The translations under genes and the position numbers were made by a program. Shown here in pieces: positions 4,107 through 28,009 of a DNA stretch of 64,000 nt. Location: the NCBI RefSeq assembly GCF_009914755.1, contig NC_060926.1; one strand, 5' to 3'. Each line of letters begins with the position of its first letter. Position 1 is the first letter of the stretch. The notes under the pieces are model-generated. The model saw only the letters and a list, made by a program, of their open reading frames with translations. It did not search any database and was not told the DNA's origin. This stretch comes from the human T2T-CHM13v2.0 reference genome, Homo sapiens.

Positions 4107-4322
4107 CTTGGCTTCTTCAAGTTCCTTGTTGGCGGAATCCACCACAAAATTTTTCTCTTTTTCGAGTTGCTCTGCTAGTTGGTCAATTTTAATCAATTCT
4201 TTACAAAGATGCTCATTGTGGCTGGTTAAATCATCTACTTGACTGCTTACCACCTCCTTACTATCCAAGAGTTTCCTAACATATTCTTCCAAGCCATGAT
4301 TTGTCTGTTTGAGATCTTCAAT
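4107..4322 (-). CDS. TSGA10: TSGA10 internal exon, 216 nt, phase 0-0, open: [72 protein letters not shown] (CEP135-like coiled coil; usually regarded as 5'UTR)
   Basis: Minus-strand acceptor aataaCAG|ATT at 4322 and donor AAG|GTACCA at 4107; 72 codons with no stop; heptad-rich. The exon is well supported; its coding status is inferred. Confidence 0.8.
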
Positions 4323-4731
4323 CTGTTATTATCAGAAAAAAAATCACATTAAAATAATTCCTTAGCTTTTTTCTGGGGAGCAGCTGTGTGACTGGAATCA
4401 GGAAGGGAGATTTGCTTCCCTGGCAAAGAAACTTAACTCTATACCTTTTTGTGCCTTCTGAATTTTGTACCATGTGAATGTATTACCTATTTGAAAAAAT
4501 ATATTAAATAAACATTTTAAATTTTATAGCAATATCTTTCAAGACAATTTATAGTTTATTTTAAAAAGAACTTAATTACTATTGATTTTTAGCCAATCTA
4601 TTAGAAAAATGGCCAAATATTTATATCTGCAATAAAGAAACTTCAATAGCTTTGAAATTAATTTTAATACCATTAAGAGTTCTTTTAATTAAATTTCTAA
4701 TTATTGTTATTAAAATATATTAACTCTTTTA

Positions 4732-5031
4732 GGCCAGGCATGGTGACTCACACTTGTAATCCCAGCACTTTGGGAGGCTGAGGCGGGCAGATCATCTGAG
4801 GTCAGGAGTTTGAGACCAGCCTCGCCAACATGGTGAAACCCCATCTCTACTAAAAATACAAAAATCAGCCGGGCATGGTGGCGAGTGCCCGTAGTCCCAG
4901 CTACTTGGGAGGCTGAGGTACAAGAATTGCTTGAACCTGGGAGGCAGAGATTGCACTGAGCCCAGATCCTGCCACTGCACTCCAGCCTTGGTGACACAGC
5001 AAGACTCTATCTCAAAAAAAAAAAAAAAAAA
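4732..5031 (+). mobile_element. Alu with poly(A)/(TA)n tail
   Basis: Alu consensus; flanking tattaact(c)tttta direct repeats. Confidence 0.95.
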
Positions 5032-5113
5032 GTATATATACATATATATATACGTATATATATGTGTATTATTAACTTTTTAAAAAGTCCTTTTGAAAGT
5101 ATCAGTAACTTAC

Positions 5114-5249
5114 TTGACTAAGCTAAATATCAAATCAATCAAGTATTTGCTGCCTAATGTGGAGGAACACAGCTTTCCTTCCCAGCCCACTATCAAACCA
5201 TCAATGGATGAAGAAAAGGGCCTTTTCTATCACAAAGGTATCCAAATGC
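5114..5249 (-). other. TSGA10: TSGA10 136-nt cassette exon (frameshifting, in-frame TGA)
   Basis: Minus-strand acceptor TTTTTTTTTTCCTTTAAAG|GCA at 5249 and donor CAA|GTAAGT at 5114; reads AFGYLCDRKGPFLHPLMV* when spliced after exon 13910-14038. Confidence 0.7.
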
Positions 5250-24693: not shown

Positions 24694-25000
24694 TTGCAGT
24701 GAGCCGAGATCGTGTCACTGCACTCCAGCCTGGGCAACAGAGTGAGACTCCATGTCAAAAAAAAAAAAAAAAAGGCACAGCCATGATGAGTTGCCTGTAT
24801 ATAATAGGCCCCAGAGAGCTCCCTTGCCCCTTCTAACATATGAGGACACAGTCTGAAGGTACCATCTATGAACCAAAAAACCTCAGACATTGATTCTGCT
24901 GGCAACTTGGATCTTAGAATTCCCAGTCTCCAGAACTGTAAGAATTAAATTTCTGTTGCTTATATGTTATTTCATTATAGCAGCCTGAATGGACTAAGAT
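24694..25000 (+). mobile_element. Alu 3' fragment followed by MST/MLT1A-like LTR 3' part
   Basis: gcagtgagccgagatcg...poly(A); then gaggacacag ... ccagaactgtaagaattaaatttctgttg ... atggactaagat. Confidence 0.7.
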
Positions 25001-25854
25001 ATTTGCCAGTAACATTTGACTTCAGGTCCTCTGCTCTTGCTTTTCCTCTCTCAGGAACACTTTCTACCCAGCCTTTCACATGGCTATCTTCTCACCCTCA
25101 GCTCTTTGGCTGAAATGTCAGAGGGTCTTCCCTGACTTCTTACCTAAAGTAGCCTCTCTCCTAGTCACTCTCTCAAATAAGTGATAAGCTATTTGCACTT
25201 ATCACTACTTGAAATTATATCATTTGCTGACTTGTTTACTATCTCCCCATACTAGAATATAAAATTCAAGAGCTCTAGGCTTTTGTCTTGTCTCTGTTTT
25301 ATCCCTAATGCCTTAAAAGTGCCCAGCACAAAGGTGAAACGCAATAAAACATTTTCAAAATAAGAAAATTTAATGATTCGAACAAAGCAGTTTCAATGGT
25401 GGGTGAAAACAAGTCTGAAGGGGACTAATGAATGAATAGTAAAGAAAAAGAAATGGAAAATGTAAACTTCTTTTAGGAAGCATGATTGTGAGAGGAAGAG
25501 AGGTACAACAAAGGTGGAAGACAACCAAGGTTGTGGAAACGTCATTATGGGAAGAGAAAAACTTGTTCCTTAATTCTCTTTACATAAGGATCCTCTTTCA
25601 GAATTAAAAGTCCTGCATCCTCTCCTCAGAAAAATGCAAATACACCTTTACAAACAATTTCAGGGGATTTAAGACTCTATAAGGTCCTTGGACTCCAGGT
25701 GAAGAAGCCCTACAGTACAGAAACAATGAAGATTCCTAAGGCATGAGTTAATGTTAATTGATGGAGAAAGACAGCTGAGGTAATAAGAGGAAACCCAGAT
25801 AAAGATGTATTGCCCCGACACAAGAAAGACAAAAGCAAGGACAGGTGAAGATTT

Positions 25855-26140
25855 AGACACTTGTAATCCCAATAATCCCAACACTTTGGGAGGCCAAGGC
25901 CAGAGGATCACTTGAGCCCAGGAATTTGAGACCAGCCTGGACAACATAGTGAGTTCCTGTATCTACAAAAATTAAAAAATAAATTAGCCAGGCATAGTGG
26001 CATCCACCTGTGGTCCCAGCTACTTGGGAGGCTGAGATAGGAGAATCACTTGAGCCCGGGAGGTCAAGGCTGCAATGAGTCATGATCGCACCACTGCACT
26101 CCAGCCTGAGCGACAGTGAGATCATGTCTCAAAAAAAAAA
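25855..26140 (+). mobile_element. Alu (AluJ-like)
   Basis: Alu consensus. Confidence 0.9.
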
Positions 26141-27937
26141 GGTAAGTGTCATGGAAATCTGAGGAAGTTTCTGTCTGGTTGAATTTTAATTTTTCAGTGA
26201 AACAGGAGCTAAGATTATATAATAAAAAGTATCATCGGTGTTGAGCAAAATATGAAGCACATAATATGTATTCAACAAATTATTGATTTTTTGATAGAAT
26301 GGAAAATACTGGAGTACTTCAATGGAATTCTGAAATCTGGTTCCACAAAAGCTTACTACAGTTGAGGTGGGTTTTTCTTTTTAAAAATATTGTCTCCAAA
26401 AGTGTAGACTTATAGACATTGAAGTAGAAAGGAACTGCCTCACTAACAGAAGGATGTGGAAAACCATACAAGATTTATGAATAATTCTGAGAGAGTATTT
26501 TATATAATAAAAATAAGTGGATAAATATTTTGGGAAACAATCAGCAAACTAAATACTGCGAGCAACAATAAAGATTAATCTTAAAAAAAATGTTGAGTAA
26601 AGAAGCAAGATGTAAATGAATACTTAGTACAATTCCATTCGAAGTTCAAAAACAAGCCAAACTGTAATGTGCATGTTCACATACAATGATGTGAAACATT
26701 AAGGAAAATCAAGGAAGTGGCTATCTTAGAAGTCAGGAGAGTGGCTATCTCTGGGGAGGGAAAGAAATATGTAATCTGAAAAGGTGATAAATAGTAATAC
26801 CTCTAACTGCCTCTGTGTATGGAGGACTTCAAAACCAAATCGTCCTAAACAAACTAGTCTAAGCAACTCAAAAAGAAGACAGAAAAGATCTCCCAGAGAA
26901 TCTCTACACCTGATTATATTCTGGGCTACAGGCAGTGATTTTTCTTCAGAAGGTAAACAGTACGCGAGATATTGTGGAAGCTGCCATTAAATAATGCCAA
27001 AGTTTAGGATTTAAAATTAATATTTAATTAATGTACCGTCCTAGTTATTTCCCACTAATTAAGACTGAAGAGTTTGGCTCATTAATCAATTAAAATACAA
27101 ACAAGAATCTGTCTTATCCTGGAAGCAGATTCGAATGCGACATCCTACTTCTATAACTAACCTGTTTTTTTCTACTTACAAACCTATTGTTATTCTACTT
27201 ATGTCCTTACACGTAAACAAAGTATACTTGAAATGCTGAACACCAGTACAGAAAATTTTAAACAAGGAAATCTCCTAGGATATAAGGTCCTGGAATGGAA
27301 GAAGGAAAACGTTGGGACACTATAATCTATGCAAACTTTCCCGAAGCTGCGAAAAAAAAAAAGTGAAAAAAAACCATATTTCTGTGAGTTTTTAGGTATC
27401 AAGTCCATGATCACCTAGTTATCCAATTTAAGTCTCAAATAGTTTTTCAACAAAAGCCAGCTTTCCCTGCCTTTACTGTGTATAATTTTTACTAAAATTA
27501 TCTGAGATTTTCATGCAAATGCCTATGTAATCTCAGCCTTTCACCACCCCAAGTCTAGAAAGAGGCTCAGAAATGAGCGATCGGGAGTCAGGCTGAACTC
27601 CCAAATCTGTGACTTCCAAATTCCTCGGCTCCACCAGAGCTTCCAGAGCGTTTCTAAACTGAACAGTCTCCCCAACAACCAAGCGGAGAGCTGCGGGAGG
27701 ACGCGAAGCAGTGACCATAGGAACTGGGCTCAAACCTAACCTCCCAAGAAACAGGGGCAACTCGTGCTGCCGAGCTTCCGGCCGGCAGCTGTGCCCGCCG
27801 CTGCCCCTCACAGCCGCTCCCGCTGCTAGCGCCCAACTCCGCCCGCCACGGCCCCGCACCCGCCACTCCTGCCCGCTTGCAGCCGCCTTCTCAGAGACCT
27901 TCCAGTCCAGTAGCAGCACTCTCCCCACCCCGCGCAC

Positions 27938-28009
27938 CTCCGCAGCTTCTACCTGGAGCTCCGGGTCCCTCCCCGGGCTCCTCGGCCCGCCGTCCTGCCC
28001 AGAGCTCAT
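27938..28009 (-). CDS. TSGA10: Candidate coding part of TSGA10 proximal first exon: MSSGQDGGPRSPGRDPELQVEAAE
   Basis: ATG at 28009 with G at -3; phase-0 donor GAG|GTGCGC at 27938 (alternative phase-0 donor CAG|GTAGAA at 27953); in frame with exons 13910-14038 and 4107-4322. Confidence 0.6.

What the first reader, a model, noticed from the sequence alone, without database searches (positions are those of the whole stretch)
4107..28009. Hidden 139-codon CEP135-like ORF in the TSGA10 '5'UTR' exons: possible unannotated long TSGA10 isoform or uORF-encoded coiled-coil protein
Seen in sequence: three minus-strand exons (27938-28009, 13910-14038, 4107-4322; 72+129+216 nt) are all phase 0 and join into one stop-free ORF from a Kozak-compatible ATG: MSSGQDGGPRSPGRDPELQVEAAE|VTTKEYDF...[27 protein letters not shown]...[37 protein letters not shown]. 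It is still open at the last donor. From recall: canonical TSGA10 starts at MMRSRSKSP in a downstream exon outside the window and is a paralogue of the CEP135 C-terminal region. The 72-aa exon aligns without gaps to CEP135 VDFLQQANKDLEK...NEKLCQELTEIDQLAQQLERHKEEVLETADKELGEAK, and the previous exon ends like CEP135 SLESRNKTNEKLIAHLNIQ. Inference: the N-terminal CEP135-like coiled coil has been retained in frame. It is either a long TSGA10 isoform for basal body or sperm tail, or a separately translated uORF product.
Basis: partly seen in the sequence, partly recalled or inferred. Interest (0 to 1): 0.82.

Follow-up and report, generated by a model that had tools for sequence, protein, structure and literature searches.

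The report
Long TSGA10 isoform, already modelled
The open reading frame hidden in the so-called untranslated exons of the sperm gene TSGA10 is real and conserved, but it is already in the databases as the start of a predicted 898-residue long form of the protein.

Summary
The frame stays open through two more exons below the window and runs into the canonical start MMRSRSKSP.

The ORF is not unannotated. A protein search returned human entries named 'testis-specific gene 10 protein isoform X1' (898 aa), X5, X6 and 'testis specific 10' (789 aa). All begin with this exact sequence, so the ORF is a 200-residue in-frame extension of the 698-aa protein.

The CEP135 likeness is real:
- The 216-nt exon matches a 216-nt, phase 0-0 exon on chr4 (36 of 72 identical).
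- The 129-nt exon has a 129-nt counterpart just upstream of it.
- Twelve exon pairs are colinear.

The extension is kept in 25 mammal models and in lizard, snake, turtle and crocodilian TSGA10 of about 850-910 aa, so it is probably the ancestral full-length form.

Curated RefSeq and the papers I read call these exons 5'UTR. The validated cDNAs start at two first exons without an in-frame ATG, and some contain a frame-breaking 136-nt exon. Translation in human testis was not tested here.

The parts
27938..28072 (-). ATG-bearing alternative first exon of TSGA10. The coding part is 27938-28009 (24 codons). An alternative form, 27953-28050, uses a donor 15 nt upstream and stays in frame.
   Evidence: preceded by GC (not an acceptor), followed by GT, with an in-frame TGA 27 nt upstream of the ATG; an out-of-frame ATG at nt 6 of the exon opens 49 codons; four human database proteins start with this translation; 22 of 25 mammal models start with a homologous MSSG-type exon.
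13910..14038 (-). 129-nt exon, phase 0-0, 43 codons ('exon 3' in the numbering of PMC9968883). It is counted as 5'UTR in NM_025244.4 and is coding in the long isoform.
   Evidence: its counterpart is the 129-nt exon at chr4:59452465-59452593; present at full length in 20 of 25 mammal models, with 33-43 of 43 residues identical to human.
5114..5249 (-). 136-nt alternative exon ('exon 4' of PMC9968883). It has stops in all three frames and shifts the frame, so including it turns the upstream exons into untranslated leader.
   Evidence: single copy in the genome. RT-PCR variants with and without it; primer R4 matches the join of exon 13910-14038 to this exon.
4107..4322 (-). 216-nt exon, phase 0-0, 72 codons ('exon 5' of PMC9968883). 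This is the best conserved part of the extension. Two further parts lie below the window and cannot be listed as rows. The first is a 66-nt exon at window -2587..-2522 (chr2:99569413-99569478, 22 codons). The second is the 168-nt exon at window -4048..-3881, which holds the canonical ATG at -3998 behind 39 open in-frame codons.
   Evidence: it pairs with the 216-nt phase 0-0 exon at chr4:59453835-59454050 (36 of 72 identical); 66-72 of 72 residues identical in 25 of 25 mammal models; lies within one long predicted helix. For the two exons below the window: searches give position, splice sites and frame. One search shows them in the human long-isoform proteins. One search gives 14-22 of 22 and 24-39 of 39 residues identical, each in 24 of 25 models. 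One search matches the stretch from 30 codons before the canonical ATG to chr4:59462986-59463108 (E = 4e-8).
28298..28573 (-). Alternative first exon ('exon 2', second promoter of PMC9968883). It has no in-frame ATG; a stop lies 9 codons before its donor.
   Evidence: primer F4 of PMC9968883 lies at 28368-28387; a partial retrocopy on chr2 joins this exon to exon 13910-14038.
41564..41813 (-). First exon of NM_025244.4. It has no in-frame ATG; a stop lies 11 codons before its donor.
   Evidence: primer F1 lies at 41576-41595.
27600..28900 (.). G+C-rich island (59-74% G+C) covering the ATG exon, exon 28298-28573 and the first exon of C2orf15. It is a likely shared bidirectional promoter region.
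   Evidence: plus the hub annotation for the C2orf15 start at 28577.

Best explanation
The 139-codon ORF is the first 139 codons of a long TSGA10 isoform of 898 residues.

How the transcript is built:
- Transcription starts at an internal G+C-rich promoter region next to C2orf15 (first exon 27938-28072, ATG at 28009).
- The transcript then splices to exon 13910-14038, skips the 136-nt exon 5114-5249, and joins exon 4107-4322.
- It continues through a 66-nt exon and the exon with the canonical ATG, both below the window.
- The result adds 200 residues in frame to the 698-residue protein.

What the extension is:
- It has a short disordered head followed by a long alpha-helix.
- The helix continues the paralogy with CEP135 upstream of the region covered by the canonical protein.
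- I infer that it lengthens the coiled-coil rod of this centriole and sperm-neck protein.

Why I think it is ancestral: reptile TSGA10 proteins carry the same N-terminus. The 698-residue 'canonical' protein is what remains when transcripts start at first exons without an in-frame ATG (41564-41813 or 28298-28573) or include the frame-breaking 136-nt exon.

Shown here: the sequence, the frame, the identity to database models, the paralogy and the conservation. Inferred: translation in human testis, and the function of the extension.
For: Identity to database models:
- Four human proteins named TSGA10 (898, 789, 742 and 740 aa) begin with exactly this sequence and continue through MMRSRSKSP at residue 201.

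Frame:
- All five exons are phase 0 and stop-free: 24 + 43 + 72 + 22 + 39 = 200 codons.

Conservation in 25 mammal long models, residues identical to human:
- 216-nt exon: 66-72 of 72, in 25 of 25 models.
- 129-nt exon: 33-43 of 43, in the 20 models that hold it whole.
- 66-nt exon: 14-22 of 22, in 24 models.
- Upstream part of the ATG exon of the canonical form: 24-39 of 39, in 24 models.
- An MSSG-type start is shared by 22 of 25 models.

Outside mammals:
- P0129 is named 'Testis specific 10 [Podarcis lilfordi]'.
- Its first 160 residues match 43 proteins. Thirty-nine bear TSGA10-type names, three are 'hypothetical' and one is unnamed. The named ones come from lizards, snakes, turtles and crocodilians, and most are 800-911 aa.
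- The TSGA10-type representatives P0129, P0140, P0148, P0167 and P0143 carry the homologous region at their N-terminus, in frame.

Paralogy with the chr4 locus:
- Genome-wide hit with E = 3.6e-13.
- Equal exon lengths and phases, 129 and 216 nt.
- Twelve colinear exon pairs.
- phmmer matches to CEP135-type proteins of 1157 and 1164 aa at residues 254-350 and 256-348.

Other support:
- The direct join of exon 13910-14038 to exon 4107-4322 fits primer R3 and the 180 and 240 bp products reported in PMC9968883 (passages read; check).
- AlphaFold2 on a 26-row alignment gives one helix over residues 35-139 of the 140-aa model P0004 (pLDDT about 97-99) and a low-confidence head over residues 1-34.
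Against: - The selected curated transcript NM_025244.4 has no coding part in the window (hub annotation).
- The passages I read in PMC9968883 state that the first seven exons form the 5'UTR. Its four validated variants start at exons 41564-41813 or 28298-28573. Neither exon supplies an in-frame ATG.
- I saw no transcript, ribosome-profiling or peptide data for the ATG exon or its junction.
- The database proteins are computer models, and models in different species may lean on each other.
- The first coding exon is only moderately conserved: 3-19 residues identical to human in the 24 non-human models. Three of 25 models start differently.
- An out-of-frame ATG sits 58 nt upstream of the start, at nt 6 of the annotated exon.
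- No codon-level dN/dS could be computed, because no other vertebrate DNA was on hand.
Confidence: 0.8

Rival explanations
1. Relic coding exons now used mainly as leader. In human the exons are ancestral coding sequence, but nearly all transcripts start at exon 41564-41813 or exon 28298-28573. The frame then has no AUG and the 698-residue protein is the only real product. The long isoform is a rare by-product.
For: - The four experimentally validated variants in PMC9968883 use only those two first exons.
- Both lack an in-frame ATG.
- The NM-like leader is 914 nt long and holds 7 short upstream ORFs of 2-16 codons.
- A partial retrocopy on chr2 records the germline join of exon 28298-28573 to exon 13910-14038.
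Against: - Protein-level identity of 92-100% in the 216-nt exon, and intact frames across 25 mammals and in reptiles, are hard to explain for sequence that is never translated.
- The ATG exon is itself shared by 22 of 25 mammal models.
Confidence: 0.14
2. Separate uORF-encoded coiled-coil peptide. The ATG at 28009 opens an ORF that stops before the main coding sequence, for example when the 136-nt exon is included or an intron is retained. This would give a small CEP135-like protein and regulate the main ORF.
For: - With the 136-nt exon included behind the ATG exon, the ORF is 85 codons and ends 478 nt before the canonical AUG.
- Short database models exist, such as the 140-aa P0004 from Rhinopithecus, which runs into the intron after exon 4107-4322.
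Against:
- I saw no evidence for a transcript that combines the ATG exon with the 136-nt exon.
- Conservation extends evenly into the 66-nt exon and the upstream part of the next exon. A short peptide would not need these.
Confidence: 0.04
3. Chance open frame in untranslated exons, with no coding meaning.
For: None beyond the curated annotation as 5'UTR.
Against: - 200 stop-free codons span five phase-0 exons.
- There is significant, colinear paralogy to the chr4 locus.
- The region is conserved in mammals and reptiles.
Confidence: 0.02

Closest known systems
Human 'testis-specific gene 10 protein isoform X1' (898 aa; P0023). Also X5 (742 aa), X6 (740 aa, XP_016860527.1) and 'testis specific 10' (789 aa, P0016).
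   Same: Residues 140-200 come from the two exons below the window, and residue 201 onward is the canonical protein.
   Different: Nothing differs in sequence. These are predicted models, not curated transcripts, and my literature searches found no paper that discusses them.
Canonical TSGA10 (698 aa; selected transcript NM_025244.4)
   Same: It is the same gene with the same C-terminal 698 residues.
   Different: The curated transcript starts at exon 41564-41813 and includes the 136-nt exon 5114-5249. The upstream CEP135-like frame is therefore broken, and the first usable in-frame ATG is at window -3998.
CEP135
   Same: - Twelve exon pairs are colinear.
- The 129-nt and 216-nt exons have the same length and phase.
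- The 216-nt exon is 50% identical.
- CEP135-type proteins of 1157 and 1164 aa match at residues 254-350 and 256-348.
   Different: - TSGA10 lacks everything upstream of the 129-nt exon's counterpart and has its own short first coding exon, which has no chr4 match.
- Mammalian TSGA10 lacks about 50 residues that CEP135-type proteins hold between the counterparts of the 66-nt exon and the next exon.
- The chr4 counterpart of exon -4048..-3881 starts in phase 1, not phase 0.
Reptile TSGA10 (for example Podarcis, Rhineura, Eublepharis, Gavialis and Mauremys models of about 890-911 aa)
   Same: They carry the homologous N-terminal region in frame behind an MSS-type start.
   Different: Only about 50% of the N-terminal region is identical to the primate query P0004. 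Some non-mammal TSGA10-type proteins keep the extra CEP135-like segment that mammals lack.

Membership tests
Long TSGA10 isoform (database isoform X1) | N-terminal sequence identical to the model | tested here: met
   residues 1-139 of P0023, P0016, P0006 and P0005 equal the three exon translations.
Long TSGA10 isoform (database isoform X1) | Frame continuous with the canonical coding sequence | tested here: met
   the 66-nt exon and the 39 codons upstream of the canonical ATG are open and phase 0; the canonical Met is residue 201.
Long TSGA10 isoform (database isoform X1) | Transcript and protein exist in human tissue | not testable with these tools
   No RNA-seq, CAGE, ribosome-profiling or mass-spectrometry data were on hand. 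PMC9968883 validates the join of exon 13910-14038 to exon 4107-4322, but not the ATG exon.
CEP135/TSGA10 paralogue family | Significant sequence similarity of the upstream exons to CEP135 | tested here: met
   - 216-nt exon: E = 3.6e-13 genome-wide, 36 of 72 identical.
- Upstream half of exon -4048..-3881: E = 4e-8.
- 129-nt exon: 7 of 43 identical, with 1 of 20000 shuffles reaching its ungapped score. It was not found by tblastn alone.
CEP135/TSGA10 paralogue family | Conserved exon structure and order | tested here: met
   twelve colinear exon pairs, and the 129-nt and 216-nt exons are both phase 0-0 in both genes. The exon after them differs in phase.
Upstream ORF encoding a separate peptide | Stop codon before, or out of frame with, the main coding sequence | tested here: not met
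   in the join that skips exon 5114-5249, the ATG at 28009 is in frame with the canonical AUG and open up to it. A separate 85-codon ORF appears only if that exon is included.
Coiled-coil rod | Long uninterrupted alpha-helix | tested here: met
   helix over residues 35-139 of the 140-aa model P0004, pLDDT about 97-99. Pairing of helices was not tested.

The most novel reading that the evidence does not exclude
The 898-residue form is the ancestral and principal functional TSGA10 of spermatids and basal bodies. The 698-residue 'canonical' protein used in functional and clinical work would then be N-terminally truncated.

Three things would follow:
- Variants in exons 13910-14038 and 4107-4322 and the two exons downstream, now scored as 5'UTR, would be coding variants in an acephalic-spermatozoa gene.
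- The reported skipping of 'exon 4' in tumours would restore an open CEP135-like frame rather than merely shorten a leader.
- In transcripts from the two ATG-less first exons that skip exon 5114-5249, about 185 open in-frame codons lie upstream of the canonical AUG, so near-cognate initiation could also make extended proteoforms.
Probability: 0.3. Interest if true: 0.55.

Novelty: already known. Interest (0 to 1): 0.36.

Why it matters
TSGA10 is a gene for male infertility (acephalic spermatozoa). It is studied as a 698-residue protein whose upstream exons are treated as a regulatory 5'UTR (PMC9968883 and PMC11393850, passages read).

The sequence evidence here says four of those exons are conserved coding exons of an older, longer protein that extends the homology with the centriole protein CEP135. 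If the long form is made in testis:
- Variant interpretation, antibody epitopes, expression constructs and knock-out designs based on the short form would miss 200 residues.
- The published 'UTR splicing' differences in tumours would need rereading.

The point is one of curation and follow-up, not of discovery, because predicted models already contain the sequence.

Tried and rejected
- First tblastn outputs were swamped by Alu and L1 matches. I filtered to fragments with at most two hits. That list still held many repeat-derived rows, and I took from it only the colinear coiled-coil pairs.
- A weak match of window 11378..11283 to chr4:59442413-59442508 (E = 0.006 among 3452 query fragments) is out of order with the other pairs. 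I treated it as chance.
- tblastn of the 43-aa and 24-aa exon peptides against the chr4 locus gave nothing meaningful. The 66-nt exon peptide gave no row among the 30 printed, which the other two queries filled.
- I hoped the retrocopy on chr2 (L016) would record the downstream exon joins. It holds only the join of exon 28298-28573 to exon 13910-14038 and then unrelated sequence.
- The Pfam scan gave only sub-threshold coiled-coil noise: FlaC_arch 22 bits against a cut-off of 27.8.
- The PDB sequence search found no relative (best E = 0.12).
- The 136-nt exon is not a dispersed repeat; the genome holds only the copy itself.
- Two papers, Carvalho-Santos 2010 and Lin 2013, are not held. The CEP135 domain map therefore rests on recall and is not used as evidence.
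- No supplementary files were opened.
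Full report
**The sequence**

- The boundaries carry AG and GT.
- Exon 27938-28072 is preceded by GC, so it is a first exon, not an internal one.
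- Its ATG at 28009 has G at -3 and follows an in-frame TGA 27 nt upstream.
- A second annotated form, 27953-28050, uses a donor 15 nt further up and stays in frame.
- The join must skip exon 5114-5249 of NM_025244.4. That exon is 136 nt long, has stops in all three frames and shifts the frame.

**Beyond the window**

The assembly is held as G000, so I fetched chr2 below the window.
- The canonical start MMRSRSKSP lies at window -3998 in a 168-nt exon (-4048..-3881). The 39 codons upstream of it are open and in frame.
- Between that exon and 4107-4322 lies a 66-nt exon at -2587..-2522. It has a long pyrimidine tract, CAG before it and GTAAGT after it.
- The five pieces give 24 + 43 + 72 + 22 + 39 = 200 codons in front of the canonical Met.

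**It is already in the databases**

A search with the 72-aa exon among longer proteins gave 179 hits, of which the best 120 were listed.
- 112 carry TSGA10-type names, one is named 'centrosomal protein of 135 kDa-like', three are 'hypothetical' and four are unnamed.
- Four are human: isoform X1 (898 aa), 'testis specific 10' (789 aa), X5 (742 aa) and X6 (740 aa, XP_016860527.1).
They continue through the 66-nt exon and the upstream part of the next exon into MMRSRSKSP.

**Paralogy with CEP135**

- The 72-aa exon finds one other place in the genome, chr4:59453838-59454050 (51% identical, E = 3.6e-13).
- That chr4 exon is 216 nt and phase 0-0, the same as exon 4107-4322. The ungapped alignment has 36 of 72 identical and 58 of 72 positive.
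- The chr4 exon just upstream, 59452465-59452593, is 129 nt and phase 0-0, the same as exon 13910-14038. Seven of 43 residues are identical, and the ungapped score of 25 was reached by 1 of 20000 shuffles. tblastn alone did not pair them.
- Filtered tblastn of TSGA10-strand fragments against chr4:59400001-59530000 gave twelve colinear pairs. One of them starts 30 codons upstream of the canonical ATG (E = 4e-8).
- The chr4 counterpart of that exon starts in phase 1 and is longer, so the structure differs there.
- The first coding exon has no chr4 match.

**Conservation**

I aligned 25 long mammal models and counted residues identical to human per segment.

| Segment | Identical to human | Models holding the segment |
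|---|---|---|
| 216-nt exon | 66-72 of 72 | 25 of 25 |
| 129-nt exon | 33-43 of 43 | 20 hold it whole (two use a shorter form, three lack it or differ) |
| 66-nt exon | 14-22 of 22 | 24 |
| Upstream part of the next exon | 24-39 of 39 | 24 |

- Twenty-two of 25 models start with an MSSG-type exon. Cavia and Megaptera start from another ATG in a different frame of the same exon, and the Ovis hybrid model differs.
- In Microtus the extension without the first exon is 156 of 176 identical, against 672 of 697 for the canonical part. It is conserved, but somewhat less so than the canonical part.

**Outside mammals**

A phmmer search of the 140-aa model P0004 over 1.84 billion representatives gave 77 hits. 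I classified the long ones by tblastn against both human loci.
- TSGA10-type: P0129, P0140, P0148, P0167, P0143.
- CEP135-type: P0160, P0171, P0192, P0155 and, less clearly, P0166 and P0172.
- P0191 gave weak scores at both loci and P0197 matched neither, so I left these two unclassified.
- The TSGA10-type proteins hold the homologous region at their very N-terminus, in frame. Three of them start with MSS or MTS.
- P0129 is named 'Testis specific 10 [Podarcis lilfordi]'. Its first 160 residues match 43 proteins: 39 with TSGA10-type names, three 'hypothetical' and one unnamed. The named ones are from lizards, snakes, turtles and crocodilians. Many are about 850-911 aa, and several are the only model for their species.

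From this I infer that the long form is ancestral, at least for amniotes.

**Structure**

AlphaFold2 on a 26-row alignment gives a low-confidence head (residues 1-34) and one helix over residues 35-139 of P0004, with pLDDT about 97-99. The helix begins in the second half of the 129-nt exon, which is where similarity to CEP135 begins. No solved structure matches by sequence. I did not test whether the helices pair.

**Why the curated annotation calls it UTR**

- In frame with exon 13910-14038, first exon 41564-41813 has a stop 11 codons before its donor and no ATG after it. First exon 28298-28573 has a stop 9 codons before its donor and no ATG after it.
- None of the four in-frame upstream pieces (the 129-nt, 216-nt and 66-nt exons and the 39 codons before the canonical Met) contains a Met. 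In such transcripts the first in-frame AUG is therefore the canonical one.
- The NM-like leader is 914 nt long and holds 7 short upstream ORFs of 2-16 codons.
- PMC9968883 (passages read) reports four validated variants (KY607423 to KY607426) from two promoters, with or without 'exon 4'. It states that the first seven exons form the 5'UTR.
- Its primers map as follows: F1 to 41576-41595 and F4 to 28368-28387; R4 to the join of exon 13910-14038 with exon 5114-5249; R3 to the join with exon 4107-4322.
- R3 also matches unspliced DNA, because the intron ends in the same four bases. The reported 180 and 240 bp products nevertheless fit the spliced joins.
The ATG exon is not part of that scheme.
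- PMC11393850 (passages read) likewise speaks of 5'UTRs with upstream ORFs.

**Literature**

Searches for TSGA10 together with CEP135, paralog, transcript variants, upstream open reading and long isoform found no paper that discusses the long isoform. PMC3756917 (passages read) cites Carvalho-Santos 2010 for the TSGA10-CEP135 similarity. That paper and Lin 2013 are not held. I opened no supplements; ORF catalogues or proteome tables in supplements could bear on translation.

**Promoter context**

Window 27600-28900 is 59-74% G+C. It spans the ATG exon, exon 28298-28573 and the first exon of C2orf15 (and the hub annotation). I infer a shared bidirectional promoter region with dispersed start sites.

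**Verdict**

- The 'long isoform' reading is right. 'Unannotated' and 'separate uORF product' are not.
- Still open: how much of the long form is made in human tissue, and what its extra 200 residues do.

Noticed in passing
L016 1398-1629 (chr2:67027733-67027964 of the assembly): A partial retrocopy joins the 3' end of TSGA10 exon 28298-28573 (73% identical) directly to exon 13910-14038 (91% identical in DNA, 81% in protein, open frame). It then continues into sequence with no match in the TSGA10 locus. This records that splice in the germ line.
   Followed up: partly
window 5114-5249 (minus strand): The 136-nt exon whose skipping is reported as higher in brain tumours (PMC9968883) is the piece that breaks the CEP135-like frame. 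It has stops in all three frames and is single copy in the genome. Whether it exists outside primates could not be tested.
   Followed up: partly
P0004 (Rhinopithecus bieti, 140 aa): A database model named 'centrosomal protein of 135 kDa-like isoform X2' is in fact the TSGA10 N-terminal exons followed by read-through into the intron after the 216-nt exon.
   Followed up: yes
Alignment (P0140, P0167, P0160, P0171 against human P0023): CEP135-type proteins and two non-mammal TSGA10-type proteins hold about 50 extra residues between the counterparts of the 66-nt exon and the next exon. Mammalian TSGA10 and the lizard P0129 lack them, which suggests loss of an exon within TSGA10.
   Followed up: no
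window 27938-28072 (minus strand), frame 2: The Cavia and Megaptera models start at an upstream ATG in another frame of the same first exon. The human exon keeps a similar open frame from an ATG at nt 6, but in human it runs out of frame into exon 13910-14038 and stops after 49 codons.
   Followed up: partly
window 27600-28900: A G+C-rich island is shared by two TSGA10 first exons and the first exon of C2orf15 on the other strand. RefSeq marks enhancer and silencer elements there (hub annotation).
   Followed up: no
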